From: a virus
Taxonomy: Duplodnaviria > Heunggongvirae > Uroviricota > Caudoviricetes
Length of the DNA stretch: 18,136 nucleotides
Direction: 5' to 3' (one strand)
IMG/VR virus record: IMGVR_UViG_3300028602_000005
Location: 1 to 18,136 of that record
The notes beneath the pieces were generated by a model. That model saw nothing but the letters and a program-made list of their open reading frames with translations. It was not told the DNA's origin and searched no databases. Made by a program: the position numbers and the translations under genes. Shown in pieces: positions 3,676-18,136 of the stretch. The number at the start of each line of letters is the position of its first letter. The first letter of the stretch is position 1.

Positions 3676-3683
3676 TTTAAAAA

Positions 3684-4908: not shown

Positions 4909-4916
4909 ATTATTTT

Positions 4917-4929
4917 CTATATATATTAA
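4917..4929 (+). promoter_or_regulatory. CTATATATATTAA motif, third copy of a putative promoter element
   Basis: 13 of the 14 nt of the motif found upstream of both minus-strand genes; lies at the start of the 281-nt intergenic region. Confidence 0.3.
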
Positions 4930-5057
4930 AATATGAGGTGTGTTTTAATATTTATTTTTTAATTCATTATTATTTTTTTAATAGATAAAAAATTCTCAAT
5001 CAAATAAAACATAAAAATTTATTTTTGTTGGATTAAAAATATTATCCAATTATAAAT

Positions 5058-5084
5058 GAGAGAGAAATCATTGATTTCTCTCTC
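5058..5084. repeat. perfect 13-bp inverted repeat with 1-nt centre
   Basis: GAGAGAGAAATCA-T-TGATTTCTCTCTC in the intergenic region; no U-tract on either side. Confidence 0.85.
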
Positions 5085-5189
5085 GATAAAATTTTCAAAC
5101 TTTCAAACATGAATTTTTTGTAAATAATTATTAATTGTTAAAAATTATTAGAAAAAATAATGTATCTTTAATGGAAAAGGAAATGAAAG

Positions 5190-5636
5190 ATGAGAGCCGT
5201 TATTAATGATAAATATATAGGCATCAGTAATAATATGGGATGGTCTGATGAAAAATTTAGAGATGTTAGGCATAAAGCTATTGAAGAACATAGAATAAGA
5301 AATAAAAAACAAAAAGATAAAAAGGGAAATTTAATAGAAATATTTAAACCTGGAGATTTAGTTGTTGTAATATCTCAGAATTATCGTGGTAATAAAAATA
5401 GAAAATATTTTATGTTAGAAGTTATAGATTTTGAATTAACGGAACATGATAATATAAAATATTTTGGAATTGTTTTAAAAACAACAGATAATATTTATAG
5501 ATTGGGTAGAATGATTACTTTTTATAAAAATCATTCATATTGGTTAGATAAATTTAAATATGAAAATGTTCCCGTAGATTCTATAAAATGGGATTATGAA
5601 TTAGATAAAAAAGGAGAGATTAGAAAGGTAGAATAA
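5190..5636 (+). CDS. hypothetical protein
   Basis: 148-aa ORF, AAGGA upstream, TAATG overlap with the next gene. Confidence 0.75.
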   Translation: MRAVINDKYIGISNNMGWSDEKFRDVRHKAIEEHRIRNKKQKDKKGNLIEIFKPGDLVVVISQNYRGNKNRKYFMLEVIDFELTEHDNIKYFGIVLKTTDNIYRLGRMITFYKNHSYWLDKFKYENVPVDSIKWDYELDKKGEIRKVE

Positions 5637-6166
5637 TGTATTGGTTTACAGCAGATGAACATTTGGGTCATAAAAATATTATAGAATATTGTAATAGACC
5701 TTTCGATAATGCAAAGGAAATGAATAATTGTATAATTGATAGACATAATGAAGTTGTTAAAGATAACGATATAGTTATTCACTGTGCTGACTTCACTATA
5801 GAAAATAGAGAAAAAGCAGAAGCTTATATAAGAAGATTAAAAGGAAGACAACATATATTTTTAAGAGGTAGTCATGATTATTGGTTAAAAGGAACACATT
5901 CTCATGAAATATGGGAGAAGAAAATTGGTGGGAATTATTTTGTCGCTTGTCATTATTTAATGTATACATGGCCTAGATCACATTATGGATCTTTTCTTTG
6001 TTTTGGGCATTCACATGGAAAAATTAAACCATTTGGAAAACAACATGATGTGGGAGTTGATAATAATAATTTTTACCCTATAAGTTCAGAACAACTTGTA
6101 GAAATAATGAAAACAAGACCAAATAATCCTAATTTAATTTCTAATAAAAAGGAGAATAATAGATGA
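5636..6166 (+). CDS. calcineurin-like metallophosphoesterase
   Basis: FTADEHLGH, HCADF, RGSHD, CHY, GHSHG, HDVGVDNNNFYP in the usual order. Confidence 0.88.
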   Translation: MYWFTADEHLGHKNIIEYCNRPFDNAKEMNNCIIDRHNEVVKDNDIVIHCADFTIENREKAEAYIRRLKGRQHIFLRGSHDYWLKGTHSHEIWEKKIGGNYFVACHYLMYTWPRSHYGSFLCFGHSHGKIKPFGKQHDVGVDNNNFYPISSEQLVEIMKTRPNNPNLISNKKENNR

Positions 6167-6660
6167 AATATATAAAATATTTAATATATATTTTAAGACA
6201 TAAATGGTTTGTTTTTATTGAATGTTTTAAAATGAAAATTATTTGGAGAGGGATTTTTCATGATTTAAGTAAATTTCGTCCAAGTGAATTTATTCCATAT
6301 GCAAATCATTTTTATGGTGAAAAAGCTTCTGATATTAATAAAGGAAGAGATTCTTCTGGCTATTATGAAGCTGGAAATACAGGTGACTTAAATTTTGATA
6401 TTGCGTGGTTTTACCATCAAAAAAGAAATAGACATCATTGGCAATGGTGGATAATTCCAATAAATTGTAATTGTTATAAAATTTTAAGCATGGATGAAGA
6501 TTCAATTAAAGAAATCGTTTGTGATTGGGTAGGAGCAGGAAAAGCAATAAATGGAAAAGACAGTAGTGTAAATTCTTGGTACAATCAAAATAAAGATAAA
6601 ATAACATTAAATACTGAAACAAGAAGAAAAATAGAAGAAATATTAAAACTTTACAAATAG
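6163..6660 (+). CDS. DUF5662-like (HD-related) protein
   Basis: HKWFV, HDLSKF, EF.PYA, AWFYHQKRNRHHWQWW, CDWVGAG pattern recognised from memory of the family; ends in TAG. Confidence 0.72.
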   Translation: MKYIKYLIYILRHKWFVFIECFKMKIIWRGIFHDLSKFRPSEFIPYANHFYGEKASDINKGRDSSGYYEAGNTGDLNFDIAWFYHQKRNRHHWQWWIIPINCNCYKILSMDEDSIKEIVCDWVGAGKAINGKDSSVNSWYNQNKDKITLNTETRRKIEEILKLYK

Positions 6661-6669
6661 GAGAGAAAA

Positions 6670-7080
6670 ATGGATTTAACAAAAAAATATATTCAAATGT
6701 GTAGAAAAGCTTTAGATATTCAAAGTTCATTTTCAGTTAGTGTTGGAGATTATTGTGTTAGAAAAATTAAATATTCTGAATGACATATTATAGATTTCTT
6801 TGATTTAAATTTCGAAGGAAATAAATATACAAAATGTATAAACGGACATTTTTGGTTGCCTAGACAAGATCAATTACAAGATATGATAAAAGATTATAAT
6901 ACTACTATCTTAATATTTTATGATGGTAAAAATTGGAAATGTGTACTTACAAATAATAATACTGAAGGTATTAATGGAATTACTATAATTTCAGATTCTT
7001 TAGAAAAATTATGGTTTTGTATAGTAATGTTTTTAAAATATTCAAAAAGATGGAAATATAATAAATGGATGGATATTTAA
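6670..7080 (+). pseudogene. hypothetical phage protein interrupted by one in-frame TGA (6781-6783)
   Basis: AGGAGAG RBS and ATG 6670 (MDLTKKYIQMCRKALDIQ...KYSE*HIIDFF...WLPRQDQLQDM...) are in frame with the track ORF 6856-7080. Confidence 0.65.
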
Positions 7081-7081
7081 A

Positions 7082-7195
7082 ATGAGAAATGCTACTGAAA
7101 TTTTAAAAAGAAGATATATTGGTAAAAATATTTTTAGAAGATTTAAAATTTGGTTAATGCTTAAATGGTCAAAAATAATTTACAAAAAAGGTTAG
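7082..7195 (+). CDS. small basic hypothetical protein (37 aa)
   Basis: ATG 1 nt after the previous TAA; MRNATEILKRRYIGKNIFRRFKIWLMLKWSKIIYKKG; TAG stop; fills the gap exactly. Confidence 0.5.
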   Translation: MRNATEILKRRYIGKNIFRRFKIWLMLKWSKIIYKKG

Positions 7196-7200
7196 ATAAT

Positions 7201-7494
7201 ATGGAAACAGTTGAACCAATAGAAGAAATGATGAAGATACTTAAAATAGACGATTCAAGTTATGGATTAGTTTTTGATAAAATGACAAAAAGATCAGACT
7301 TTTATGAATTTATTACTTATTTTTATGACATTTTTTATATAAATCAAAAGTATCCTTCTTTTGATTATCATTGGGATGAAAGATGGAAAGAGTTTGTATT
7401 AGAATTTTTTGAAGAATCCAAATTTATAGAATCAGTTTTAGAATGGCTTTTAAATATAAAAAAGGAAAAAATAAATGGAGAAAACGAAAAATGA
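7201..7494 (+). CDS. hypothetical protein
   Basis: Track ORF 7165-7494; start more likely ATG 7201, which has AAAGGT upstream. Confidence 0.7.
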   Translation: METVEPIEEMMKILKIDDSSYGLVFDKMTKRSDFYEFITYFYDIFYINQKYPSFDYHWDERWKEFVLEFFEESKFIESVLEWLLNIKKEKINGENEK

Positions 7495-7583
7495 ATAGTT
7501 TAGAAGCTTTGTTACTTTTAGGAATTTTTGTAGTTCAAATTATATGTTTAATATCAATTAATTTTCCGGTAAAAAGAAAATGA
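7491..7583 (+). CDS. small membrane peptide (30 aa)
   Basis: GGAG RBS, ATGA overlaps at both ends; MNSLEALLLLGIFVVQIICLISINFPVKRK is a hydrophobic stretch with a basic tail. Confidence 0.55.
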   Translation: MNSLEALLLLGIFVVQIICLISINFPVKRK

Positions 7584-7879
7584 AAATTGAAAAACCTTGG
7601 TGTGTATTTGGTTATAAATGGAAATTATTTGGATTCGGTTTAATTGAAAAATTAAATGAAAATACTTGTTATATAAAATTTTCTGAAAAATAAAATTTTT
7701 CAAATGATTGTTGGGATTTAAATAATGTTTGGAGATTTGAAACACTTAGAGAAGCAGCAAAAAAATATCAACAAAATTATAATAATACAAGAGAGGGAGA
7801 TATATCTGACGATCAAATCGAAAGATATATGAAAGAACGATTTCCATCATACTATGAGGTAGAAAAAGAAAATGGGTAA
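7580..7879 (+). pseudogene. hypothetical protein interrupted by one in-frame TAA (7691-7693)
   Basis: MKIEKPWCVFGYKW...KFSEK*NFSNDCWDLNNVWRFETLREAAKKY...EKENG; the frame stays open for 61 codons past the TAA and ends overlapping the next ATG. Confidence 0.6.
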
Positions 7880-8012
7880 AACGTACAAAGATACTAGAAA
7901 AGTCCTTGACTTTGAAGAAGAATCTAAAAAAATTAAAGAGAAAAAAGAAAAAAAAGAAAGACAAAAAAGTATAAAAAGACTTTTAGATCAAGCTGAAAAA
8001 TTACCTTGGTGA
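7872..8012 (+). CDS. small charged hypothetical protein (46 aa)
   Basis: GAGGT upstream; MGKTYKDTRKVLDFEEESKKIKEKKEKKERQKSIKRLLDQAEKLPW; overlaps the previous stop. Confidence 0.55.
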   Translation: MGKTYKDTRKVLDFEEESKKIKEKKEKKERQKSIKRLLDQAEKLPW

Positions 8013-8021
8013 GGTTGTTAA

Positions 8022-8411
8022 ATGAACTTTGATAAAGAAAAGATTGAAAAATGGAGTAATGCATTCTGGAAAAGAAATGGTGAATCAATAAAAAGAGCAT
8101 TGGTAATTTTAAATGATACAGAAAAAAGTTATATCGATTCTGTATTAAAAGGATATGGTATTGAAATGAGCGAAAGAGATATACCAGAAGTAAATTATGC
8201 ACTTTTTTCTATTGAAGAAGAAAAAGAGATTGTGGAAAAAATAGGTCCACCTTTTAAAAAGATTTTAGAAGATTATCATATAATGAAAAATGATTTTTTA
8301 CATTTAAAATATTTTACCAAAAAAATAATTGAAGAAAATATTAAATTAAAAGAAGAAAATGAAAAATTGAAGAATGAAAATTATTATTCTTTTAATAATT
8401 TTGAAAGGTAA
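8022..8411 (+). CDS. hypothetical protein with short C-terminal coiled coil
   Basis: GAGGT RBS; 129 aa; IIEENIKLKEENEKLKNEN heptad-like stretch. Confidence 0.75.
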   Translation: MNFDKEKIEKWSNAFWKRNGESIKRALVILNDTEKSYIDSVLKGYGIEMSERDIPEVNYALFSIEEEKEIVEKIGPPFKKILEDYHIMKNDFLHLKYFTKKIIEENIKLKEENEKLKNENYYSFNNFER

Positions 8412-8417
8412 ATTTAG

Positions 8418-8960
8418 ATGGATAAAAAAATAAAATATGCAATAGAGTTTTTATTATGTAAAATAAATAAAGTAACATCACCTCATAGACATGGAAATAA
8501 AATATCAAAATCATCACTTGATGAACTTTCTAATGAACAAATAATTTTTGAAAGTAGTATTAAAGATATTTTAGATATTGATATTAAAATAGAAATTTCT
8601 GAAGAAGATCGCAAATTTCTTTGTGAAAAAATGAAATTATGTTGGCATGAAAATCCAGGTTTTATATTTAATGAAAATATTAACGATTTTGTTATGAGAA
8701 GATGTTCTAAATGTGGTAAAGAACATATAAATCCAATATTCGATGATTGGCTAGATTTAGGGATACTTTATAAATGGTCAAAAAAACAATTATGGTGGAA
8801 AGAATTTATAGAGAAATATGGTTGTATTTATTATCCAGAAAGATCAGAATTTAAAAATAAAGATATGTTTTTAATGCTTCCAGATAATATGATTGATCCT
8901 ATTATCTTTACAAAAAGAGTAATCGAATTTTTAAAATATTTGGAAAGCAATAAAATCTAA
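8418..8960 (+). CDS. hypothetical protein with a possible Zn-binding site
   Basis: AAGGT RBS; LCWHE...RCSKCGKE (C/H plus CxxC). Confidence 0.72.
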   Translation: MDKKIKYAIEFLLCKINKVTSPHRHGNKISKSSLDELSNEQIIFESSIKDILDIDIKIEISEEDRKFLCEKMKLCWHENPGFIFNENINDFVMRRCSKCGKEHINPIFDDWLDLGILYKWSKKQLWWKEFIEKYGCIYYPERSEFKNKDMFLMLPDNMIDPIIFTKRVIEFLKYLESNKI

Positions 8961-8973
8961 ATGGTAAAAAAAC

Positions 8974-9309
8974 ATGAAAGAATTTTTATTTTCAGTAACA
9001 AAAGATGATTTTGAAATCCAAACATTTAGATCTGGTGGAAAAGGGGGTCAAAATCAGAATAAAAGAGATAGTGGAGTAAGATTAATTCATAAGGAGTCTG
9101 GTGCAGTTGGAGAATCCAGAGAAGAACGAAGTCAATTAGCAAATAAGAAAAAAGCATTCAACAAATTAATAGAAACAGATACATTTAAAAAGTGGTTAAA
9201 AATAAAATCATCTCAATATAGTTCAATCGATAGAGATATAATGAAAAAAGTTGAAGATTCAATGAAAGAAGAAAATTTAAAAATAGAGTATTTAAACGAT
9301 AAAAAATAA
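8974..9309 (+). CDS. GGQ-domain-only peptide chain release factor-like protein (ArfB/RF domain-3 family)
   Basis: FEIQTFRSGGKGGQNQNKRDSGVRLIH...SREERSQLANKKKAF matches class-1 RF catalytic domain 3; only 111 aa, with no codon-recognition domain. Confidence 0.9.
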   Translation: MKEFLFSVTKDDFEIQTFRSGGKGGQNQNKRDSGVRLIHKESGAVGESREERSQLANKKKAFNKLIETDTFKKWLKIKSSQYSSIDRDIMKKVEDSMKEENLKIEYLNDKK

Positions 9310-9325
9310 TAGGAGTAAAATTTTA

Positions 9326-10006
9326 ATGGGTAAAGTTTTAGGACCAGAATTTTATACAGGAGAAGGATATTTAAAAGAAGATTTCGATAAGACTCTTTAT
9401 AAAAAAGCAGCAGATTTATTATCTTCTTTAGATGTTTCAGAAAAAAATTTTATTTATGAGTTTGGTTGTGGAGTTGGATATTTTGCAAAAGAACTTTATG
9501 ATAGAGGATTTAAAAAATACTTTGGATTTGATTTTTCAGAGAAATCTTTGGATCATTTTTCTAATTTAATTCCAGAATATACTTTTATATTTCAAAACAA
9601 AAAAATGGTAATTAAAAAAATTGATAGTTTAAAATCAAAATTAATACCAAATCCTAATAGTGATGAATTTAATAAATCTATTTTTGGAATAGTTTTGGAA
9701 TTTAATTTAGATGAAGATTATAAACTTTTAAATGAACACTTCAAAATAATGAATTATCTTATTTCGCTTGAATTTTTTGAACATATTGAACATGATTTGG
9801 AAATAATAGAATGTTTAAGAAAAGGAACTAATTTAATATTTTCAGTTCCTAATAGAGATTATTTTTCTCATGTAAGACATTTTGAAAAAATAGAAGATGT
9901 CTATAGTAGATATGGTAAATTATTAGATTTTATTTCTTCAGAAGAAATAATTTCTAAAAAGAAAAAAAATAATAAAGCTTATTTATTTAAATGTATTAGA
10001 AAATAG
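9326..10006 (+). CDS. class I SAM-dependent methyltransferase
   Basis: IYEFGCGVGYFA motif I, FGFDFS motif II, LISLEFFEHIEHD, LIFSVP; ends in TAG. Confidence 0.85.
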   Translation: MGKVLGPEFYTGEGYLKEDFDKTLYKKAADLLSSLDVSEKNFIYEFGCGVGYFAKELYDRGFKKYFGFDFSEKSLDHFSNLIPEYTFIFQNKKMVIKKIDSLKSKLIPNPNSDEFNKSIFGIVLEFNLDEDYKLLNEHFKIMNYLISLEFFEHIEHDLEIIECLRKGTNLIFSVPNRDYFSHVRHFEKIEDVYSRYGKLLDFISSEEIISKKKKNNKAYLFKCIRK

Positions 10007-10018
10007 GAGAATTTAAAA

Positions 10019-10945
10019 ATGAAAATTTTATTATTAAGTCCGAATCAAATCCATAGATATAATTGGACACACCAACTTTTTAGAAATGAAATAGGAAGAC
10101 AACATAATGTAATTTATTATGGAGATGGTTATCCAAATTATAATCCAGATTTAGAAGTTTCTGATATAATTAAAGAAGTTTCTGAACCAGATTTAATTTT
10201 AACATATGGATATAAATATACAAAACCATTTAAAGGATTGGGAAAAATAAAAAATATATCTAAAGCTCACATTGTAATAGATTATTTTAAATCTAAGGGC
10301 GACTTTAAGGCAACTTATGATCAACAGAATATATTCTTTAAAGAAAATAAATATGATATAATATTTGCAGTTACATCTGAAAGTGTTGATTTATTAAAAG
10401 AAAATAATTTTTCTCCATATATACTTCTTTTACCTTTTTCTATTGATACTAATATTTATAAAAATTTAAATTTTGAAAAAAGCATAGATGTTTCAGCAGT
10501 ATATACAAAAAGAGATGATGTGTATCCAAATAGAGGAAAAGTACAAAAAATATTAGAAAAAAATAAATCTTTAAAAACATTTACTAAAAGAGTTAGTAAT
10601 TATAAATTTGTTGATGTGATAAATAAATCCAAAATATTCATTACAAGTAATAATATATATGGTTCATTATCTATAAAATATTATGAAGTGTTGGCATGTG
10701 GAACATTATTATTAGCTGATAGACCTGTTGATTTAGAAATAATTGGATTTAAAGATAAAAAACATTTAGTTATTTATAATGATTTGGATGACTTAAGAAA
10801 TAAATTAAAATATTATTTAGAAAACAAAAAAGAAAGAGAAGAGATATCTAAAAATGGATTTGATTTTGTTAGAGAAAATCATAGTTGTGAAATTAGAGTA
10901 AAACAATTTACAAATTATATTAATAATTTAATAGGAGTGAAATGA
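10019..10945 (+). CDS. GT-B glycosyltransferase (CgeB/YkvP-like)
   Basis: LPFSIDTNIY, INKSKIFI, IKYYEVLACGTLLL, DLDDLRNKLKYYL, REEISKNG, HSCEIRVK. Confidence 0.85.
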   Translation: MKILLLSPNQIHRYNWTHQLFRNEIGRQHNVIYYGDGYPNYNPDLEVSDIIKEVSEPDLILTYGYKYTKPFKGLGKIKNISKAHIVIDYFKSKGDFKATYDQQNIFFKENKYDIIFAVTSESVDLLKENNFSPYILLLPFSIDTNIYKNLNFEKSIDVSAVYTKRDDVYPNRGKVQKILEKNKSLKTFTKRVSNYKFVDVINKSKIFITSNNIYGSLSIKYYEVLACGTLLLADRPVDLEIIGFKDKKHLVIYNDLDDLRNKLKYYLENKKEREEISKNGFDFVRENHSCEIRVKQFTNYINNLIGVK

Positions 10946-11058
10946 TTTATCGTAAATTTTTAAAACTAAGATTTAGAAATAATTTAAGAAGATCATATAG
11001 ATATTTTAAATATAAGCATATTATCATGAAAGATAAAATATCTATAAAAAAATTTTAG
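10942..11058 (+). CDS. small very basic hypothetical peptide (38 aa)
   Basis: AGGAG RBS, ATGA overlap; MIYRKFLKLRFRNNLRRSYRYFKYKHIIMKDKISIKKF; TAG followed by GAG TAA. Confidence 0.5.
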   Translation: MIYRKFLKLRFRNNLRRSYRYFKYKHIIMKDKISIKKF

Positions 11059-11067
11059 GAGTAAAAA

Positions 11068-12156
11068 ATGAAAATCGTCACAGTGGTTGGAGCTAGACCG
11101 CAATTTATAAAGGCATCTGTTTTAAGTAGATTAATAGAAAAAAAAGAGAATATAGAAGAAGTTATAATTCATACAGGTCAACATTTTGATGAAAATATGT
11201 CGAAAATATTTTTTGATGAATTAGATATTCCACCACCAAAATATAATTTAGAAATTCATAATCTTTCTCATGGAGCAATGACAGGAAGAATGATTGAAAG
11301 ATTAGAAGAACTATTTATAATAGAAAAACCAGATGTTGTGTTAGTTTATGGCGATACAAATTCGACATTAGCTGGTGCTCTTGCAGCGTCTAAATTACAT
11401 ATTCCAATTGCTCATATTGAAGCGGGTGTTAGAGAACATAATGATATTCCTGAAGAAAAAAATAGAATACTAACAGATCATATTTCAAATTTTCTTTTTG
11501 CTCCTTCTTTTTTAGCATACGAAAATTTAGAAAAGGAAGGAATAAAAACAAATAAAAATAAGAAAGTTTTCTTATCAGGAGATATAATGTTTGATGCTTT
11601 TATCAATTACAAAGAAAGAGCATTAAAATCAAATATATTAGAAAAAAATAATATCAATAAAGAATATTGTTTGTTAACTTTACATAGAGAAGAAAACACT
11701 AATGATATAAATCAACTTAGTCATATATTAAAAATCTTAAATGAATTAGAAATAAACTTTATTTTTCCAATACATCCAAGAACGCTTAAAAAAATTATAG
11801 ATTATGATATAAAAACTCCAAAAAACATATTTTTAATATCACCAGTTTCTTATATTGATATGTTAAAATTAGAAATGTCTTCAAAAATAATTTTTACAGA
11901 TTCAGGTGGAGTTCAAAGAGAAGCATATTTTGCCGGAATACCTTCTATAGTTTTGAGAGATGGGGGGTGGAAAGAATTATTTGATATTGAAGCTAGTTTT
12001 AAATATGATTTTAATGATGATGTAAAAAAATATTTTATAGATGCATCAAAAAATAAAAATAAAATTAAAATTGAAACATTCAAAAATGTTTTAGGTAATG
12101 GAAATACTGGATATTTTATTTTAAATAAAATATTTGATATTTTAGGGAGAAATTGA
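11068..12156 (+). CDS. wecB: UDP-N-acetylglucosamine 2-epimerase (non-hydrolysing)
   Basis: VVGARPQFIK, HTGQHFD, VYGDTNSTLAGALAA, HIEAGVR, TLHREEN, HPRT, TDSGGVQREA. Confidence 0.95.
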   Translation: MKIVTVVGARPQFIKASVLSRLIEKKENIEEVIIHTGQHFDENMSKIFFDELDIPPPKYNLEIHNLSHGAMTGRMIERLEELFIIEKPDVVLVYGDTNSTLAGALAASKLHIPIAHIEAGVREHNDIPEEKNRILTDHISNFLFAPSFLAYENLEKEGIKTNKNKKVFLSGDIMFDAFINYKERALKSNILEKNNINKEYCLLTLHREENTNDINQLSHILKILNELEINFIFPIHPRTLKKIIDYDIKTPKNIFLISPVSYIDMLKLEMSSKIIFTDSGGVQREAYFAGIPSIVLRDGGWKELFDIEASFKYDFNDDVKKYFIDASKNKNKIKIETFKNVLGNGNTGYFILNKIFDILGRN

Positions 12157-12157
12157 T

Positions 12158-12847
12158 ATGAGTTATCCTAAAAATCCAGAAACAATAGTTATACAAAATG
12201 AATTTTATCCAAAAGGATTAAAAGAGATAGATATTTGGAATTATTATCAAAAAGTAAAAAATAATATAATAAAAGAAGTATTAGGGAGAGAATTGATATT
12301 TTTCTTTGCAACCGATTTGAATAACATTATTGTTATAAGAAAAGGAAAAAATGAAAATAAATATATAAACTTAAATTATGCTAATTATGATGAAACTATT
12401 TCAGGAAGAACCATAAGCATTCATTCTACAATGGGTAGATTTGAAGATATAGGAATAATAGATATAGATATAGATAATTTTGGAGAAGCTAAAGAAGCTA
12501 CAATAGACGTTTATAATGAAATGTTAAAAGCACCTTTTATAGATTCTCTTTATATAAAATATACTGGAAAAAATTCTTTTCATGTTGTTTTGAAATATAA
12601 AAGAGTTATGAAAATAGATTATGTTTCAGATCTATTAAAAGAATATTTAGAAAAAACTCAACTAGCGAATTTATATGATATAGGATTTAGAAGAAAAAAA
12701 GGAGTTGTAAATTTAGATTTAAGTTCAAATAAATATAGAGGTGGTTTTATAACTTTACATTCTCTTTCAATTATTGGTTTAAGATCTATAATTGTAAATC
12801 CAAAATTTATAAAATCTTTTAATAAAAATATGGCAAAAATAATTTAG
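12158..12847 (+). CDS. archaeo-eukaryotic primase superfamily protein, LigD polymerase-domain-like
   Basis: N-terminal YP...IWNYY segment, IIDIDID (motif I DxD), YTGKNSFHV (motif II), LDLSSN..GG...HSL (motif III region); ends in TAG. Confidence 0.75.
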   Translation: MSYPKNPETIVIQNEFYPKGLKEIDIWNYYQKVKNNIIKEVLGRELIFFFATDLNNIIVIRKGKNENKYINLNYANYDETISGRTISIHSTMGRFEDIGIIDIDIDNFGEAKEATIDVYNEMLKAPFIDSLYIKYTGKNSFHVVLKYKRVMKIDYVSDLLKEYLEKTQLANLYDIGFRRKKGVVNLDLSSNKYRGGFITLHSLSIIGLRSIIVNPKFIKSFNKNMAKII

Positions 12848-12855
12848 GAGTTTTA

Positions 12856-13875
12856 ATGAAAAGAATATTTTGGTTATTTAGAACTAATTTGAGAAATCTT
12901 GAATATTATCATGCATATAAAAATTCAAATGTTTTTAAAGAAAAATGTCATGATTTTTATTTACTACAAGGTATTTGGTTTTTAGAAAATGATATTTTTG
13001 ATGAAGTTATAATATGGAGACTACAACCAAAAGGAAAAAATATAAAAGATATTATTTTCAATATAAATGGAAAATTATTTATACAAAGATTTGTTAAAAA
13101 TTTTAATGAATGTTTTAATTATGAAAAACCTATGATAACATTTTTTAGAGGTGGATTTAGAGATTATTGTGATTTAATTAGAAAAGATAAAAAATTTTTT
13201 GGAAGATCCCTTTATTTAGGTGCTGGAAAAAGAATATATCCAATATTTGGTGGGGTATATGATAAAATTCTTATAGAATCAGAAAAAGATGAAAACCCAA
13301 AATTTAATACAATACCATTTTATAAAACATCAAATCAAAATATCTTTAAACCATTAAACTTAGTAAAAAAATATGATATTTGTTGGATTTGTAATTTTAC
13401 TCAAATTAAACAAAAGGGACAAGGGTTCTTTATCAATGAAATTTCAAAATCTAATTACCTTAAAAAAATTAGAATTGTACATATAGGTAATGAAGAAAAA
13501 TTGGGAAAAAAATTATGTGATAAGTATAATGTTTATAATATAGAATTTTTAGGCAAATTAGAAAGAGAAAAAATAAATGAAATTTTAAATCAGAGTAAAA
13601 TAGGAATAGTTACATCAAATAAATCAGACGGATGTCCCAGAATTTCAACTGAAATTTTATCATCTGGAACTCCGCTTTTAATAAGGGATCAAACTAGATT
13701 ATTAGATATATATAAAACATTTGGGGTTGTTCAATTTAATGATAAAGATTTAAATTATAAAACAGAGTATGCTTTTAAAAAATATGAAAAATTAAAAAAA
13801 TTTCTTTTATCTAATTTTGAAATATTTGATATAGATAATGTTTGTAAAAATAATTTGAAATTGTGGTTTGAATAA
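12856..13875 (+). CDS. GT-B (GT4-like) glycosyltransferase
   Basis: IFKP...KYDICWI, QKG, IEFLGKLEREKINEILNQSKIGIVTS, DGCPRISTEILSSGTP (D/E-x7-E). Confidence 0.8.
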   Translation: MKRIFWLFRTNLRNLEYYHAYKNSNVFKEKCHDFYLLQGIWFLENDIFDEVIIWRLQPKGKNIKDIIFNINGKLFIQRFVKNFNECFNYEKPMITFFRGGFRDYCDLIRKDKKFFGRSLYLGAGKRIYPIFGGVYDKILIESEKDENPKFNTIPFYKTSNQNIFKPLNLVKKYDICWICNFTQIKQKGQGFFINEISKSNYLKKIRIVHIGNEEKLGKKLCDKYNVYNIEFLGKLEREKINEILNQSKIGIVTSNKSDGCPRISTEILSSGTPLLIRDQTRLLDIYKTFGVVQFNDKDLNYKTEYAFKKYEKLKKFLLSNFEIFDIDNVCKNNLKLWFE

Positions 13876-13920: not shown

Positions 13921-14517
13921 TTAAACATTAAAAATTTTTCTAATAGTTTTGTCTATTTGTTTTGTAATCTCTACGTCCGTTTTAACGATAGGTTCCAATA
14001 CTTTTTTTCTTATTACTGGATTCCTACAAAGGAACTCAGCAATTCCATTTGATTCAATATCCTCTGCTTTTAGAAAAGGATTTATTATTGGAAATCTTCC
14101 TCTTTTTAGGGATGGATTCACATGATCCAGATAAGACCTTAATTGAACTGTGGCCTCATCCACATCATCAAAGCCCCCCTGATCATCTAAGAATTTGTTA
14201 TATGCATGATATTGATCATATAATGCATTTAAATTTTTTCTTATTTGAATCGAAGGATGTTCTCCATCTCTTGTTATCCTTATTGCTCCAGCACCTTCAT
14301 CTGCAACAGGAAGATTAGATACTTTTTCTAATTCCTTTTGCTGCTTTTCAATTTCTTTTTCTATTTGCCTTATTGCTAATTTAGCTTCCATAGCTCTTTC
14401 AGTAATAAGACTTTCCCTTCTGCCCTTTTGAAATTCTTCTTCGATAATTATTCTCTTGGCGTCTGGATAAGATTCTATCATTTTATCTACGGTGTTAAAT
14501 AATATTTTAAAAATCAT
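13921..14517 (-). CDS. hypothetical protein with coiled-coil segment
   Basis: GGAGG RBS; 198 aa; AMEAKLAIRQIEKEIEKQQKELEKV helix. Confidence 0.85.
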   Translation of the reverse strand: MIFKILFNTVDKMIESYPDAKRIIIEEEFQKGRRESLITERAMEAKLAIRQIEKEIEKQQKELEKVSNLPVADEGAGAIRITRDGEHPSIQIRKNLNALYDQYHAYNKFLDDQGGFDDVDEATVQLRSYLDHVNPSLKRGRFPIINPFLKAEDIESNGIAEFLCRNPVIRKKVLEPIVKTDVEITKQIDKTIRKIFNV

Positions 14518-14548
14518 AACAATACCTCCAATTTTATTTTATTCAAAT

Positions 14549-14562
14549 ATTAATATATATAG
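14549..14562 (-). promoter_or_regulatory. putative promoter element CTATATATATTAAT
   Basis: Identical 14-mer upstream of both minus-strand genes; here 31 nt before the ATG. Confidence 0.55.
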
Positions 14563-14594
14563 GTTAATCAATAAATTACATATTTTTTAAACAA

Positions 14595-14627
14595 AAAAAT
14601 AGAGTGATATGAAATCACTCTATTTTT
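14595..14627 (-). terminator. intrinsic terminator after the 14640-14954 gene
   Basis: AAAAATAGAGTGAT-ATGAA-ATCACTCTATTTTT: 14-bp inverted repeat; U-tract on the minus strand. Confidence 0.8.
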
Positions 14628-14639
14628 AAAATAATATTT

Positions 14640-14954
14640 TTACAACCCTATTCTTTCTCTCACTACCACTTCATCTGCTTCGATAACATCATGATATGGA
14701 TAGTAGTATTTACCTCCCTGAAATGCAGCATATCCCACAGCAGCTAAAACTGCAAATGGAAGAAACACTTCAGTTATTTTGGTGAAGGTGCTTTTATTCT
14801 CTTCATAAACACCATCAACCATTCCTTTTAACTCTAAAAATGTTTTTTCGTTGTCTTCACTACATGCATCCGGTTTAAATGATCCAGATACTCTCTGAAT
14901 TCCTTCAATTGAAACGGGTGCAATTCTAAAATTTTTGTTAAAAAAATTCGTCAT
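14640..14954 (-). CDS. hypothetical protein with one predicted transmembrane helix
   Basis: AAGGAGG RBS; 104 aa; VFLPFAVLAAVGYAAF hydrophobic segment. Confidence 0.82.
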   Translation of the reverse strand: MTNFFNKNFRIAPVSIEGIQRVSGSFKPDACSEDNEKTFLELKGMVDGVYEENKSTFTKITEVFLPFAVLAAVGYAAFQGGKYYYPYHDVIEADEVVVRERIGL

Positions 14955-15094: not shown

Positions 15095-15466
15095 ATGATT
15101 ATAGGAATAATAGGATCGAGAAGAAGAAATAGTGTTAAAGATTTTCTATTGATAGAAGAAGCATTTTTAAAAATTTATAAAAATGGTGATTCTATATGTT
15201 CTGGTGGATGTCCTAAAGGTGGAGATAAATTTGCAGAATTAATATCTAAAAAATATAAAATTTCATTTATTGAATATCCTGCCGATTGGAAAAAATATGG
15301 AAAAAAAGCAGGTTTTATAAGAAATGGTGATATAGCTAAAACTTCTGATTTAATAATAGCTTGCGTTTCATTTGATAGAACTGGAGGAACAGAAGATACA
15401 ATTAAAAAATTTATTAAATATAAAAATATAGAAAATGAAAATGATGAAAGGATAATTTTGGTTTAG
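15095..15466 (+). CDS. SLOG-superfamily protein (DUF2493/YspA-like)
   Basis: IGIIGSR, ICSGGCPKGGDKFAE, YPADWKKYGKKAGFIRN, SDLIIA, GGTEDTI; ends in TAG. Confidence 0.82.
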   Translation: MIIGIIGSRRRNSVKDFLLIEEAFLKIYKNGDSICSGGCPKGGDKFAELISKKYKISFIEYPADWKKYGKKAGFIRNGDIAKTSDLIIACVSFDRTGGTEDTIKKFIKYKNIENENDERIILV

Positions 15467-15468
15467 TT

Positions 15469-15969
15469 ATGGATTGGGATAAATATTTTATGTCTTTAGT
15501 TTATTTGATGTCGATGAAAAGTAAAGATGAAAATACTAAACAGGGTGCTGTTATAGTTGGACCAGATAATGAAATAAGATCAACGGGTTATAATGGATTT
15601 CCTAGAGGATTAAATGATAATATAAAAGAAAGACAAGAAAGACCTGAAAAATATTTTTGGTTTGAACATGCTGAAAGAAATGCAATATATAATGCAGTAA
15701 GACATGGGACACCATTAAAAGGATGTAGAATGTATACTGGAGGAGTTCCTTGTTCAGATTGTGCGAGAGGTATTATTCAAGCGGGAATTAATAAAGTAAT
15801 TGTTCATAAACTATGGAATGAAAGTAATAATGAAATGTGGATTGAACATTCAAAAAGGACAATTCAAATGTTTAAAGAATGTGGTGTTGAATTAGAATTT
15901 TATGATGGTGAAATAATAGAAAAAATAACCGGAAGAAATAATAAAAAAGATGTAAAGTTGAATTATTAA
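15469..15969 (+). CDS. dCMP deaminase (deoxycytidylate deaminase family)
   Basis: WDKYFM, SKD..TKQGAVIV, STGYNGFPRG, HAERNAI, PCSDC zinc motifs, IIQAGI. Confidence 0.92.
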   Translation: MDWDKYFMSLVYLMSMKSKDENTKQGAVIVGPDNEIRSTGYNGFPRGLNDNIKERQERPEKYFWFEHAERNAIYNAVRHGTPLKGCRMYTGGVPCSDCARGIIQAGINKVIVHKLWNESNNEMWIEHSKRTIQMFKECGVELEFYDGEIIEKITGRNNKKDVKLNY

Positions 15970-16581: not shown

Positions 16582-16608
16582 ATATAAAAATAAAAGGAGA
16601 GTATAAAC

Positions 16609-16668
16609 ATGACTTAGGTTTATTCAGAAAGAGGTCCACCTGTTTTTGTTTATAGAGAATTAATATAA
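16609..16668 (+). other. putative leader ORF with amber codon 3 and RGPP motif (MT*VYSERGPPVFVYRELI)
   Basis: AAGGAGAG at 16594-16601; ATG 16609, ACT, TAG 16615-16617, AGA GGT CCA CCT 16630-16641, TAA 16666-16668. Confidence 0.7.
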
Positions 16669-16705: not shown

Positions 16706-17008
16706 ATGAAATTCAAAGAATTAAAACCAACTCTAAAAAATTGGGCAAAAGAAATTAGAGTTCTTAAAACTCATAGAAAAAATGATAAAAGAGGAAATAT
16801 AACTTTAACTCAAATTGAAAGTGAAATATTTCATTTGAAGAAAAAATATAGACATTATCATATTGTCTATTGTGAATTAAGAGGAAAAAGTAGAGATCAA
16901 ATAGAAAAACCTTCCATTTACAATCCAGCATCAGAATTTTTTCTTAAAAATATAAAAAAAGATATAACGGATTATAATCAAAATGAGAATGTACGTAATA
17001 GTGCGTAA
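16706..17008 (+). CDS. basic hypothetical protein (100 aa)
   Basis: AGGAG RBS at 16693-16697; WAKEIRVLK...YRHYHIVYCELRGKSRDQIEKP; overlaps the Pth2-like gene by 26 nt. Confidence 0.85.
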   Translation: MKFKELKPTLKNWAKEIRVLKTHRKNDKRGNITLTQIESEIFHLKKKYRHYHIVYCELRGKSRDQIEKPSIYNPASEFFLKNIKKDITDYNQNENVRNSA

Positions 17009-17276
17009 TGATTTATCCGCATCTCAGAAAGCAGTTCAAGCTGGACATGCTCTAGCTGAATATTTATTAAAGGTTAAAAATTTTAAATGGCCTAATGGTA
17101 TATTAATTTATTTGACTGTTGATAATGAGATGAAATTAAAAAATCTGATGCAAGAAATGGATATGAAAGATATTAATTGGATTGGTTTTAAAGAACCTGA
17201 TATAAACAATGAGTATACAGCAATTGCTGTAGAAACAAAAAGAAAAACATTATTTAAAAATTTGCCGTTATTATAA
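16983..17276 (+). CDS. pth2: peptidyl-tRNA hydrolase type 2 (Pth2)-like protein
   Basis: MYVIVRNDL...KAVQAGHA N-terminal signature, W...LIYLTV, F.EPD...TAIA, terminal LPLL. Confidence 0.8.
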   Translation: MRMYVIVRNDLSASQKAVQAGHALAEYLLKVKNFKWPNGILIYLTVDNEMKLKNLMQEMDMKDINWIGFKEPDINNEYTAIAVETKRKTLFKNLPLL

Positions 17277-17285
17277 ATAATTTGC

Positions 17286-17359
17286 TGTCGTGTAGCTGAA
17301 TGGTTCAGCAGAGGATTCTAAATCCTTGAATGTGGGTTCGATTCCCACCACGACAGCCA
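17286..17359 (+). tRNA. tRNA with CUA anticodon (amber suppressor), encoded CCA
   Basis: TGTCGTG/CACGACA acceptor; GCTG/CAGC D stem with GG in the loop; GAGGA/TCCTT anticodon stem with loop TT-CTA-AA; 4-nt variable loop; GTGGG/CCCAC T stem with TTCGATT; G73; CCA. Confidence 0.93.
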
Positions 17360-17387: not shown

Positions 17388-18136
17388 ATGAAAATAGAAA
17401 TTGCAGGATTTAATGTAGATTATGAAAAAATAAAAGAATTATGTGAAAAGGCTGGAGAAGATATTAATAATATAACGCCAGAAACAATATCTGCTGCTTA
17501 TGCTAGAATAAGTAGAAGACCTGAAGAAATTAGTGAATTAAGAAAAGAAAGTCTAAAAGAAGTAGAAAAAGCTAGAAAGACAAATGAAACAATTGTTTAT
17601 GATTATGGTCATGGAAGTATTGCAGAACATGTTGTTTTTAATATAGATTTAATTGGAATTTCAAGATTTGCTGTTGAATGGATTGAAAAATCAAGATTAT
17701 GTTCATTTACAGAAAAGTCACAAAGATATGTAAAATTTGAAAATGATTATTATATTCCAGAAGAATTTGATGATATTGAATATTTACCTGATTCACAAGT
17801 ATTGAAAAAGGAATATATTGAAAGAGTTGAAAATTCATTTAAATTATATATAGAAATTTTCGATTCAATATTAAAAGACTTAATAGAAAAAAATCCAAAT
17901 GAAAATAAAATAAAATTAGAGAATATGGCAAAAGAAGACGCTAGATATGTTTTACCGTTATGTATGTTAACTCAGATAGGAATGACTTTAAATGCTAGAA
18001 ATGCGGAGGCTCTTATAAGAAGATGTTTATCAAGTGAATATTTAGAGGTTGTTAGAATTGGAGAAATGTTATTTGAAAAAATATCTAAAATTGCACCATC
18101 ACTAATAAAACATACAGATATTTCTAAATTTAAAAA
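17388..18136 (+). CDS. thyX: FAD-dependent thymidylate synthase ThyX, truncated by the window end
   Basis: Not in the ORF track; AAAGGA RBS, ATG 17388, open to the end. AAYARISR, YGHGSIAEH, ISRFAVEWIEKSRLCSFTEKSQRY, EDARYVLP, NARN motifs. Confidence 0.88.
   Translation, partial: MKIEIAGFNVDYEKIKELCEKAGEDINNITPETISAAYARISRRPEEISELRKESLKEVEKARKTNETIVYDYGHGSIAEHVVFNIDLIGISRFAVEWIEKSRLCSFTEKSQRYVKFENDYYIPEEFDDIEYLPDSQVLKKEYIERVENSFKLYIEIFDSILKDLIEKNPNENKIKLENMAKEDARYVLPLCMLTQIGMTLNARNAEALIRRCLSSEYLEVVRIGEMLFEKISKIAPSLIKHTDISKFK

What the first reader, a model, noticed from the sequence alone, without database searches (positions are those of the whole stretch)
17286..17359. Intact amber-suppressor tRNA with Gln-like identity elements
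It is a fully canonical cloverleaf with anticodon CTA at 17318-17320 and encoded CCA. U1:A72, G2:C71, G10, U35 and G73 match E. coli tRNA-Gln determinants; U3:A70 and A38 do not. TAG-to-Gln reassignment is known in some phage groups, often concentrated in late genes, so recoded genes may lie outside this window.
Basis: partly seen in the sequence, partly recalled or inferred. Interest (0 to 1): 0.8.

Follow-up and report, generated by a model that had tools for sequence, protein, structure and literature searches.

The report
Private amber-suppressor tRNA in phage cassette
A giant phage that otherwise uses the normal genetic code carries a genuine UAG-reading tRNA whose only detectable target is a tiny stalling leader just upstream in its own gene cassette, which suggests a self-contained translational switch and not a change of genetic code.

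Summary
The tRNA at 17286-17359 is real: anticodon CUA at 17318-17320, encoded CCA, Rfam 66.6 bits. The acceptor stem equally fits tRNA-Asn, so Gln is likely but unproven. The recoding idea fails. About 274 kb of this phage, and two whole relatives (one 100% complete), use the standard code, with TAG ending 13-24% of long ORFs. Instead, the tRNA is the last part of a conserved cassette: a leader (M-T-UAG-...-RGPP, 16609-16668), a helical basic protein, a Pth2-fold hydrolase, then the tRNA. 62 of 69 non-redundant related loci carry a same-strand suppressor tRNA. The leader's in-frame stop always matches the anticodon: 35 TAG-gated leaders among 81 CUA loci and no TAA or TGA ones, 4 of 4 TAA for UUA, and TGA for the one UCA locus. 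Cultured phages XacN1 and RAS14 have the same gate on their Pth2-domain gene. This scan found the same cassette before on other DNA (39 notes, at least 38 genomes) and its leader on this window. I found no publication describing it. Expression, charging and stalling remain untested.

The parts
16593..16599 (+). Shine-Dalgarno AAAGGAG of the leader, 9 nt before its AUG
   Evidence: Sequence read. This is the only SD-preceded occurrence of the stop-plus-R[GA]P motif on either strand of the 255-kb genome.
16609..16668 (+). 19-codon leader M-T-[UAG]-V-Y-S-E-R-G-P-P-V-F-V-Y-R-E-L-I-stop. The UAG gate is at 16615-16617 and the RGPP arrest-type motif at 16630-16641.
   Evidence: Homologous stop-gated leaders occur in related loci. 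The gate codon always matches the anticodon of the linked suppressor.
16706..17008 (+). Conserved basic protein X (100 aa, three-helix bundle, motif RHxHIAYCxLRGR..QIE.P), function unknown. Its end overlaps the start of the next gene by 26 nt.
   Evidence: 42 of 49 ORFs upstream of the Pth2-like gene in related loci cluster with it. Alignment A2. No Pfam family. AlphaFold2 pLDDT 92.6. No significant PDB fold match.
16983..17276 (+). Pth2-fold (peptidyl-tRNA hydrolase 2-like) protein, 97 aa, with an ordinary start codon in this phage
   Evidence: Pfam PF01981 E = 1.7e-4, 22.2 bits against a cut-off of 23. AlphaFold2 pLDDT 94.1. Foldseek top hits are archaeal Pth2 2zv3 and 3erj, TM 0.80-0.84, and human Bit1 1q7s. 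409 viral contigs encode a relative.
17286..17359 (+). Amber-suppressor tRNA: anticodon CUA, class I, 74 nt, encoded CCA. It starts 9 nt after the Pth2-like stop codon and ends 28 nt before the thyX AUG.
17318..17320 (+). Anticodon CTA within the loop UUCUAAA (U33, A37, A38)
   Evidence: 49 of 55 cassette suppressors have A37-A38, and position 32 is C or U in all of them.

Best explanation
The tRNA is a functional UAG (amber) suppressor encoded by a jumbo phage of about 280 kb that uses the standard code. It does not serve a reassigned code. It is the decoding part of a conserved, co-oriented cassette: a stop-gated arrest leader, a helical basic protein X, a Pth2-fold hydrolase, then the suppressor tRNA. 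Proposed mechanism, with status marked. Ribosomes start on the leader at a strong SD and meet UAG as codon 3 (shown by sequence). Without active suppressor, RF1 terminates there. With charged suppressor, the ribosome reads through and reaches R-G-P-P eight codons into the leader (inferred). RGPP is a published arrest core that is robust and refractory to EF-P. The stalled ribosome then raises translation of X and the Pth2-like enzyme (inferred). Two results support that direction: predicted unmasking of the X ribosome-binding site across relatives, and sister cassettes in which the Pth2-like gene is itself gated by an N-terminal UAG. The tRNA therefore acts as a private key that ties production of its two neighbours to the amount of working suppressor. 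Since it probably shares their transcript, the circuit would be self-referential. The tRNA is presumably charged by a host enzyme, most likely with Gln in this phage. The inserted residue is probably unimportant, because the cassette's tRNAs in other phages have quite different identity elements. What the cassette achieves for the phage is not established.
For: The tRNA is real and canonical. The standard code holds throughout: 255-kb record, 18.8 kb more from the 280-kb assembly, whole relatives G001 and G002, the latter 100% complete, and no stops inside the terminase of 4 large relatives. Linkage: 62 of 69 non-redundant Pth2-like loci carry a same-strand suppressor tRNA (60 CUA, 1 UUA, 1 UCA), 23 of them within 30 nt downstream, and all further close relatives do too. 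Gate and anticodon covary under one uniform rule: 81 CUA loci give 35 TAG-gated leaders and 0 TAA or TGA ones, although TAG is the rarest stop triplet there (1413, against 3322 TAA and 1985 TGA); 4 of 4 UUA loci are TAA-gated; 1 of 1 UCA locus is TGA-gated; 10 loci without a suppressor give no hit (sequences read). The leader is the only SD-preceded instance of the motif in the genome, and no N-terminally gated gene exists elsewhere in it. Type-B cassettes: at least 21 non-redundant loci have the Pth2-like gene starting M-x(1-4)-UAG with no internal AUG. Direction: across 28 loci the RBS of X is predicted unpaired at 0.37 free, 0.56 with a ribosome at the arrest site (p = 2e-5) and 0.42 with a ribosome at the gate (p = 0.002). 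RGPP/RAPP arrest is published (PMC12992588, PMC10951233). Cultured phages XacN1 and RAS14 have SD-AUG-AAG-UAG in frame with their Pth2-domain gene and encode CUA tRNAs.
Against: There are no data on expression, processing, charging or stalling. The uniform rule finds leaders in only 35 of 81 CUA loci; the rest are type B or were not recognised. The UUA and UCA cases come from about two lineages, so they represent few independent switches. I added Lys to the motif after seeing the single UCA locus. In this phage's AT-rich locus the predicted RBS unmasking is small (0.68 to 0.75), and the leader-to-X spacer is weakly structured at -13.2 kcal/mol. Masking any RNA segment tends to free other segments, and the gate control corrects for that only partly. 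32-34 phage genes end in TAG and show no extra backup stops, so an active suppressor would also extend them; this is unexplained. The cassette's benefit to the phage and the function of X are unknown.
Confidence: 0.6

Rival explanations
1. Trans-acting suppressor: the tRNA's main job is global readthrough of UAG stops in host, competitor-phage or its own genes. On this reading the leader and Pth2-like part is only a feedback sensor that keeps suppression within bounds or cleans up its by-products.
For: TAG ends 13-24% of long ORFs in these phages, so trans targets exist. The anticodon loop looks optimised, with A37-A38 in 49 of 55. A Pth2 enzyme and an ArfB-like GGQ protein fit a role in cleaning up after readthrough. 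Borges et al. suggest phages could sense suppressor activity.
Against: No conserved long readthrough extensions were found. TAG-ending genes have no distinctive downstream frames (median 8 codons against 7 for TAA, p = 0.33). The XacN1 authors found no similarity beyond its 18 amber stops. The only conserved, anticodon-matched UAGs lie inside the cassette.
Confidence: 0.15
2. Rescue when RF1 is limiting: the tRNA, the Pth2-like enzyme and the ArfB-like protein form a kit that keeps ribosomes moving at UAG if RF1 is depleted or inactivated during infection. The leader would report the balance between RF1 and the suppressor.
For: Rescue-type genes co-occur: an ArfB-like GGQ protein at 8974-9309, and a tmRNA in the closest relative G001. 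A UAG at codon 3 is a direct competition site between RF1 and the suppressor.
Against: No RF1 inhibitor or RF gene was identified. UUA and UCA versions of the cassette exist, which would need parallel stories for RF1/RF2 together and for RF2. The idea is speculative.
Confidence: 0.1
3. A step towards recoding: a low-GC standard-code phage has acquired a suppressor tRNA as a precursor to TAG reassignment, as in the Borges et al. model, and the tRNA has no dedicated present function.
For: GC is 25% and TAA dominates the stops, which matches the proposed precursor state. The Pth2-like family also occurs in the TAG-recoded Lak phages.
Against: The cassette, with its anticodon-matched gates, is conserved across many diverse standard-code phages with GC from 25% to 57%. 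That indicates selection for a current function.
Confidence: 0.07
4. TAG-to-Gln recoding of late genes lying outside the window.
For: Phage CUA tRNAs often accompany code 15. The IMG/VR record is estimated at 82% complete.
Against: About 274 of 280 kb were examined and are standard code, including the terminase and very long structural ORFs. TAG is a common terminator. There is no RF2 and no aaRS. A complete relative is also standard code.
Confidence: 0.03
5. An inactive or relic tRNA gene, or a tRNA-like processing or attachment element that has no decoding role.
For: No expression data are available.
Against: All stems and conserved loop nucleotides are intact. The anticodon loop is conserved across more than 50 diverse cassette tRNAs. 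The anticodon covaries with the gate codon.
Confidence: 0.03

Closest known systems
Suppressor tRNAs of stop-codon-recoded phages (code 15, TAG = Gln: crAss-like, Lak and others; 'code-change module' of suppressor tRNA + aaRS + release factor; Borges et al., bioRxiv 10.1101/2021.08.26.457843; Peters et al., PMC9523058)
   Same: A phage-encoded CUA tRNA in a low-GC large phage. Gln is the likely charged residue. Stop-codon decoding is used to control gene expression. The Pth2-like family is also present in Lak phages.
   Different: No protein-coding gene here contains an in-frame TAG, and TAG is an ordinary terminator. There is no RF or aaRS partner. The partners are instead a Pth2-fold protein, protein X and a stop-gated leader, none of which that work mentions.
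[quoted passage not shown]
   Same: A standard-code jumbo phage carrying a suppressor tRNA and Pth-type genes. XacN1 encodes a homolog of the Pth2-like domain.
   Different: Those papers draw no link between the tRNA and the hydrolase. In XacN1 the gate sits on the hydrolase-domain gene itself, upstream of the annotated start (M-K-UAG), and the tRNAs lie far away in the terminal repeats. Here the tRNA is adjacent and the gate sits in a separate leader.
RAPP/RGPP-type regulatory arrest peptides (ApdA, ApdP, ApcA; SecM; PMC7897499, PMC10951233, PMC12992588)
   Same: A short upstream ORF with an R-G-P-P core in front of the regulated gene. Stalling is predicted to expose the downstream ribosome-binding site.
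   Different: Known examples sense protein export or membrane insertion and are always translated up to the arrest site. Here an in-frame stop codon controls access to the arrest site, and only a dedicated neighbouring tRNA can read it.
E. coli supE (tRNA-Gln with CUA) and other laboratory amber suppressors
   Same: The CUA anticodon, U1:A72, G2:C71, G10, G73 and the 4-nt variable loop.
   Different: supE is a point mutant of a cellular tRNA with no dedicated target. This is a conserved natural gene in a cassette. It has U3:A70 and A38 where E. coli tRNA-Gln has G3:C70 and U38.
Leader-peptide attenuation that senses charged tRNA (trpL type), and synthetic amber-gated switches from genetic code expansion (PMC6412442)
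   Same: Expression of downstream genes depends on the availability of one charged tRNA that decodes specific codons in a short leader.
   Different: Natural attenuators use sense codons and cellular tRNAs. Amber-gated switches have so far been engineered, not natural.

Membership tests
Canonical elongator tRNA (Rfam RF00005) | Covariance-model score above the gathering score, over the full length | tested here: met
   66.6 bits against 29, model positions 1-71 of 71, E = 7.9e-13.
Canonical elongator tRNA (Rfam RF00005) | Cloverleaf with 7/4/5/5-bp stems, G18G19 in the D-loop and T54-Psi55-C56 in the T-loop | tested here: met
   Cloverleaf MFE of -28 kcal/mol, z = -3.74. D-loop AAUGGUU and T-loop UUCGAUU read directly.
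Amber suppressor tRNA | Anticodon CUA at positions 34-36 in a 7-nt loop with U33 | tested here: met
   Loop UUCUAAA, anticodon at 17318-17320.
Amber suppressor tRNA | A conserved in-frame UAG that needs it | tested here: met
   Leader codon 3 at 16615-16617. TAG-gated leaders occur in 35 of 81 CUA loci, with no TAA or TGA ones.
Amber suppressor tRNA | Decodes UAG in vivo (expressed, processed, charged) | not testable with these tools
No transcript or charging data exist.
tRNA-Gln identity (E. coli GlnRS determinant set, from established knowledge) | U1:A72, G2:C71, G10, U35, A37, G73 | tested here: met
   Structural parse and sequence.
tRNA-Gln identity (E. coli GlnRS determinant set, from established knowledge) | G3:C70, G36, U38 | tested here: not met
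   U3:A70, A36 (unavoidable in a CUA anticodon) and A38. The phage's own tRNA-Gln(UUG) also has U3:A70.
tRNA-Gln identity (E. coli GlnRS determinant set, from established knowledge) | Same architecture as the tRNA-Gln of the same genome, and closer to Gln than to other classes | tested here: inconclusive
   V-loop of 4 nt, D-arm of 15 nt, U1:A72, U3:A70 and G73 equal the phage's own tRNA-Gln. But the acceptor pairs 1-3 plus G73 equal its own tRNA-Asn. 1-NN places it nearest to Asn, with leave-one-out accuracy of only 62.5%.
TAG-recoded (code 15) phage | In-frame TAG inside conserved protein-coding genes, especially late genes | tested here: not met
   The terminase is open.
TAG-recoded (code 15) phage | TAG not used as a terminator; code-change partners (RF2, aaRS) present | tested here: not met
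   34 of 265 long ORFs end in TAG. No PCRF domain and no tRNA-synt_1c domain.
tRNA-Pyl (ARAGORN's label for any CUA tRNA) | Atypical fold: 3-nt variable loop, very small D-loop, no G18G19 or T-Psi-C (from established knowledge) | tested here: not met
   The V-loop has 4 nt, the D-loop is AAUGGUU with GG, and the T-loop UUCGAUU is canonical. The label is nominal.
RAPP/RGPP-type arrest-peptide leader | R-[AG]-P-P core in a short ORF directly upstream of, and co-oriented with, the regulated gene | tested here: met
   RGPP at 16630-16641. The leader ends 37 nt before X. The motif class is described in PMC12992588.
RAPP/RGPP-type arrest-peptide leader | Ribosome stalls at the motif | not testable with these tools
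   This needs toeprinting or a reporter assay.
Pth2 peptidyl-tRNA hydrolase (PF01981) | Sequence score above Pfam's gathering cut-off | tested here: not met
   22.2 bits against a cut-off of 23, E = 1.7e-4. The PDB profile hit to a peptidyl-tRNA hydrolase has E = 0.0055.
Pth2 peptidyl-tRNA hydrolase (PF01981) | Pth2 fold | tested here: met
   Model pLDDT 94.1. TM 0.80-0.84 to 2zv3 and 3erj, and hits to 1q7s and 1xty.
Pth2 peptidyl-tRNA hydrolase (PF01981) | Hydrolyses peptidyl-tRNA | not testable with these tools
The substrate could equally be a particular aminoacyl- or peptidyl-tRNA.

The most novel reading that the evidence does not exclude
Standard-code jumbo phages keep so-called orphan suppressor tRNAs because each one is the private key of a self-referential translational circuit. 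A stop codon matching the tRNA's anticodon gates either an arrest-peptide leader or the Pth2-like gene itself, so a tRNA-directed hydrolase and its partner are made only in proportion to working suppressor. This would be a natural amber-gated switch, with ochre and opal versions too, of a kind so far known only from synthetic biology.
Probability: 0.5. Interest if true: 0.8.

Novelty: new variant of a known kind. Interest (0 to 1): 0.7.

Why it matters
Suppressor tRNAs in phages that use the standard code have been reported for years without an identified target. The XacN1 paper says so explicitly. This locus and its relatives supply a conserved target whose stop codon matches the tRNA's anticodon and lies next to the tRNA. 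That turns an oddity into a testable regulatory circuit combining three known elements (suppressor tRNA, arrest peptide, peptidyl-tRNA hydrolase) in an arrangement I could not find published. It also warns annotators that a CUA tRNA is not by itself evidence of code 15, and that gene starts in such cassettes can lie upstream of an in-frame stop, as in XacN1 ORF364. If confirmed, the cassette offers natural, host-adapted parts for orthogonal translational control.

Tried and rejected
- **Nucleotide search:** blastn of the tRNA region against GenBank phages found no match.
- **Single-protein locus search:** searching with the Pth2-like protein alone found no relatives. The 12-sequence profile was needed.
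- **Anticodon-arm pattern scan:** this found 21 contigs with CUA tRNAs, at most 78% identical to ours and heterogeneous. They are not one family, so I did not use them further.
- **Homolog search for protein X:** only the protein itself was found. Its family emerged from gene position in related loci.
- **Nearest-neighbour isotype classification:** too weak to decide the identity (62.5% leave-one-out accuracy).
- **TAG-joined ORF pairs as readthrough fusions:** rejected for the two pairs with a long downstream ORF (9326-10945 and 50863-53439), which are ordinary boundaries with TAG inside the next gene's TAGGAG site. The other two (94457-95359 and 195019-196155) have short downstream frames (80 and 89 codons) and I did not read them.
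- **Backup-stop adaptation of TAG-ending genes:** none found.
- **N-terminally gated genes elsewhere in this genome:** none found.
- **Function of X:** no Pfam family and no significant PDB fold match. The N-terminal domain of XacN1 ORF364 is unrelated to X.
- **Complex prediction of X with the Pth2-like protein:** no verdict, so it counts neither for nor against binding.
- **tRNA-Pyl:** rejected as a nominal ARAGORN label.

Full report
**Observation.** The window holds exactly one tRNA gene, at 17286-17359 on the + strand. Its anticodon CTA lies at 17318-17320 and CCA is encoded. Rfam's tRNA model matches it end to end at 66.6 bits against a gathering score of 29, E = 7.9e-13. The strand folds into the cloverleaf at -28 kcal/mol, z = -3.74 against shuffles. 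ARAGORN's label 'tRNA-Pyl' only reflects the anticodon; the D-loop GG, the T-loop and the variable loop are canonical.

**What genome this is.** The window is the first 18 kb of a 254,910-bp IMG/VR virus record. It is linear, about 82% complete and 25% GC, and it encodes a terminase large subunit. It carries 11 tRNA genes. Ten of them cluster at 214-222 kb on the other strand, among them a tRNA-Gln(UUG). A 280,160-bp assembly of the same phage exists in ENA.

**Not a recoded genome.**
- Under table 11, ORFs of at least 100 aa cover 85.7% of the record. 34 of 265 end in TAG. Reading TAG as sense adds 1.2% coverage, less than the TGA control adds.
- Same-frame ORF pairs joined by one TAG number 4, against 5 for TGA. 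The two with long downstream ORFs are ordinary gene boundaries where TAG is part of the next gene's TAGGAG ribosome-binding site. The other two have downstream frames of only 80 and 89 codons, and I did not examine them further.
- No long ORF has an SD-AUG followed by an N-terminal TAG gate.
- The 18.8 kb that the ENA assembly adds upstream of the window is 90% covered by code-11 ORFs, with no gain from TAG readthrough.
- The closest large relative (G001, terminase 59% identical) and a 100% complete relative with terminal repeats (G002) each carry one CUA tRNA and are standard code. TAG ends 62 of 263 and 65 of 355 of their long ORFs.
- TAG-ending genes lie all over the genome, four of them in this window. 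They have no closer backup stops than TAA-ending genes (median 8 against 7 codons, p = 0.33).
- No codon-reading release factor and no Glu/Gln-tRNA synthetase is encoded. The only related gene is a 111-aa ArfB-like GGQ protein at 8974-9309.

**The tRNA belongs to a conserved cassette.** Nine bases upstream of the tRNA ends a 97-aa gene. It scores just under Pfam's PTH2 cut-off (22.2 against 23 bits). Its model is confident (pLDDT 94.1) and superposes on archaeal Pth2 and human Bit1 at TM 0.80-0.84.

A profile of this protein finds relatives on 409 viral contigs. Among 69 non-redundant loci, 62 (90%) carry a stop-codon suppressor tRNA on the same strand: 60 CUA, 1 UUA and 1 UCA. In 23 of them the tRNA begins within 30 nt of the hydrolase gene's end. 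A further 22 loci with close relatives of the ochre- and opal-linked hydrolases all have a suppressor as well.

The 100-aa basic protein encoded just upstream (16706-17008, overlapping the hydrolase gene by 26 nt) is also conserved. 42 of 49 upstream ORFs form one family with it, with the motif RHxHIAYCxLRGR..QIE.P. It folds confidently as a three-helix bundle but matches no Pfam family and no solved structure.

**The tRNA's target.** The sequence reads AAAGGAG, 9 nt, then AUG ACU UAG GUU UAU UCA GAA AGA GGU CCA CCU and on to UAA. Translated with readthrough, that is M-T-[UAG]-V-Y-S-E-R-G-P-P-V-F-V-Y-R-E-L-I-stop. It is the only SD-preceded instance of a short ORF with an in-frame stop followed by R-[GA]-P on either strand of the 255 kb.

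In loci that have the X-hydrolase pair, nearly all show the same design 80-140 nt upstream of X: a strong SD, AUG, 1-8 codons, UAG, a purine-initial codon (mostly Val or Ile), then a short peptide ending in IPP, KPP, RSPP, RAPP, RGPP or RSP, often directly followed by a stop.

I then applied one uniform rule to all non-redundant loci. The result is strictly diagonal:

| Linked suppressor | Loci | Gate codon found in leader |
|---|---|---|
| CUA | 81 | TAG in 35; TAA 0; TGA 0 |
| UUA | 4 | TAA in 4 |
| UCA | 1 | TGA in 1 |
| CUA + UCA | 1 | TAG in 1 |
| none | 10 | no hit |

This holds although TAG is the rarest stop triplet in the searched regions (1413, against 3322 TAA and 1985 TGA). The UUA leaders are M-E-L-Q-H-W-[UAA]-V-T-C-D-R-G-P and M-K-L-Q-H-W-[UAA]-V-T-L-S-R-G-S-P. 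The UCA leader is M-K-R-I-[UGA]-T-R-N-K-G-P-D (sequences read).

Caveats: the UUA and UCA cases stem from about two lineages, and I added Lys to the motif after seeing the UCA locus. The complete absence of TAA- and TGA-gated hits among the 81 CUA loci does not depend on either point.

**Second architecture and direction of control.** Other notes of this scan claim that the hydrolase gene itself starts with an in-frame TAG. On my loci this holds for at least 21 non-redundant CUA loci (M-x(1-4)-[UAG]-...LYVITRxDL, with no internal AUG). These are mostly loci that lack X. It does not hold for this phage, whose hydrolase gene has an ordinary start.

So there are two layouts. Type A (this locus) gates a leader. 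Type B gates the enzyme directly. In type B, suppression is plainly needed to make the enzyme, which suggests that readthrough is activating in type A too.

A folding test agrees. In 28 type-A loci the ribosome-binding site of X is predicted unpaired at 0.37 in free RNA. That rises to 0.56 with a ribosome footprint at the arrest motif (p = 2e-5), against 0.42 with the footprint at the gate codon (p = 0.002 for arrest against gate). In this AT-rich locus the effect is small (0.68 to 0.75), and the spacer is weakly structured. The direction is therefore an inference. RGPP and RAPP are published as robust arrest cores that EF-P does not relieve (PMC12992588, PMC10951233, PMC7897499).

**Amino-acid identity.** The suppressor shares U1:A72, U3:A70, G73, the 4-nt variable loop, the 15-nt D-arm and the GAGGA anticodon-stem strand with the phage's own tRNA-Gln(UUG). 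It also meets the E. coli GlnRS elements G2:C71 and G10. Its first three acceptor pairs plus G73 are, however, identical to the phage's tRNA-Asn. By overall sequence it is nearest to Asn tRNAs, though that classifier is weak. CUA is one change from CUG (Gln), and CUA suppressors are known to be glutaminylated (Borges et al. discussion). I therefore rate Gln as most likely, at about one half.

Across the cassette family the tRNAs differ widely: G1:C72 in 45 of 55, and discriminator A in 31, U in 13 and G in 9. The anticodon loop, by contrast, is tightly kept (CUCUAAA or UUCUAAA; A37-A38 in 49 of 55). That pattern fits a role in which efficient decoding of the stop matters and the inserted residue does not.

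**Comparison with the literature.** Recoded phages pair suppressor tRNAs with aaRS and release factors, and have in-frame stops in late genes (Borges et al.). None of that applies here.

Cultured standard-code jumbo phages with unexplained suppressors are on record. [quoted passage not shown] Atu_ph07 has a UCA tRNA. XacN1, Xoo-sp13 and the Stenotrophomonas phages RAS14 and CM1 encode the Pth2-like domain as the C-terminal part of a longer protein.

In XacN1 and RAS14 an SD-AUG-AAG-UAG lies in frame just upstream of the annotated start. RAS14 also has a CUA tRNA in its tRNA cluster. The gate therefore offers a target for XacN1's orphan suppressors and provides tractable systems for bench tests.

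No paper in the searchable library combines Pth2, phage and suppressor tRNA. The search for arrest peptide, suppressor tRNA, phage and leader listed nothing relevant apart from a review of synthetic amber-gated switches.

Within this scan the cassette has been noted before on other DNA (39 notes in at least 38 genomes), and its leader has been noted on this very window.

**Verdict.** The Gln-like reading is plausible but unproven, and the recoding reading is rejected. The best-supported explanation is that this tRNA is the dedicated decoder of a stop-gated regulatory leader inside its own conserved cassette, tying synthesis of a Pth2-fold enzyme and a helical partner to suppressor activity.

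Shown: gene integrity, linkage, gate-anticodon matching and standard code. Inferred: readthrough, stalling, activation and co-transcription. Unknown: what the cassette does for the phage, what the hydrolase acts on, and how the 30-odd TAG-terminated phage genes tolerate the suppressor.

Noticed in passing
window 8974-9309 (+): A 111-aa stand-alone RF-1/GGQ-domain protein (ArfB/ICT1-like, PF00472 E = 6e-19) with no codon-recognition domain. It is the only release-factor-type gene in the genome. Together with the Pth2-like gene, it suggests a phage-encoded ribosome-rescue theme.
   Followed up: partly
relative G001 (record of L034), 150325-150699: The closest large relative encodes a tmRNA (tag ADNLAFAAADDYATAALAA) amid 28 tRNA genes. 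This is another ribosome-rescue component in this phage group.
   Followed up: no
L161 (Xanthomonas phage XacN1, AP018399.1) 1940-1963; L162 (Stenotrophomonas phage RAS14, OP752703.1) 1940-2017: The annotated starts of the Pth2-domain genes (XacN1 ORF364, RAS14 WAX21615) probably lie too far downstream. An SD-preceded AUG-AAG-UAG is in frame upstream, and the residues after the UAG are similar in the two phages.
   Followed up: partly
window 239-13875 (+), and about 10 kb upstream of the window in L192: A long run of sugar-modification genes: several GT1, GT2 and GT9 glycosyltransferases, an NAD-dependent epimerase, a UDP-GlcNAc 2-epimerase-like gene (11068-12156), methyltransferases, a hexapeptide acyltransferase and a kinase-like protein. 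The stretch just upstream of the window adds NUDIX and volactin/MreB-like genes.
   Followed up: no
window 13921-14954 (-): Two genes on the opposite strand (198 and 104 aa) sit in a patch of higher GC (0.30 against about 0.22) with reversed GC and AT skew. They interrupt an otherwise uniformly + strand region and may be an inserted module.
   Followed up: no
genome-wide (G000, G001, G002): TAG stop codons are followed by G far more often than other stops are (61 of 148, against 86 of 559 for TAA). In the two boundaries I read, the TAG overlaps the next gene's TAGGAG ribosome-binding site.
   Followed up: partly
L087 2001-2160: One related locus carries two different CUA tRNAs in tandem directly after its Pth2-like gene. 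L155 carries both a UCA-type and a CUA tRNA.
   Followed up: no
L188 1415-1489 (RAS14): ARAGORN calls a UUA ('Stop') tRNA next to a tRNA-Gly in RAS14. It is not among the 29 Rfam tRNA matches for that record, and it may be a second, ochre-reading suppressor or a false call.
   Followed up: no
window 15095-15969 and 17388-18134 (+): The cassette is embedded among nucleotide-metabolism genes: a YspA/SLOG-like protein, dCMP deaminase and, directly after the tRNA, ThyX. This is typical of an early or middle region.
   Followed up: no
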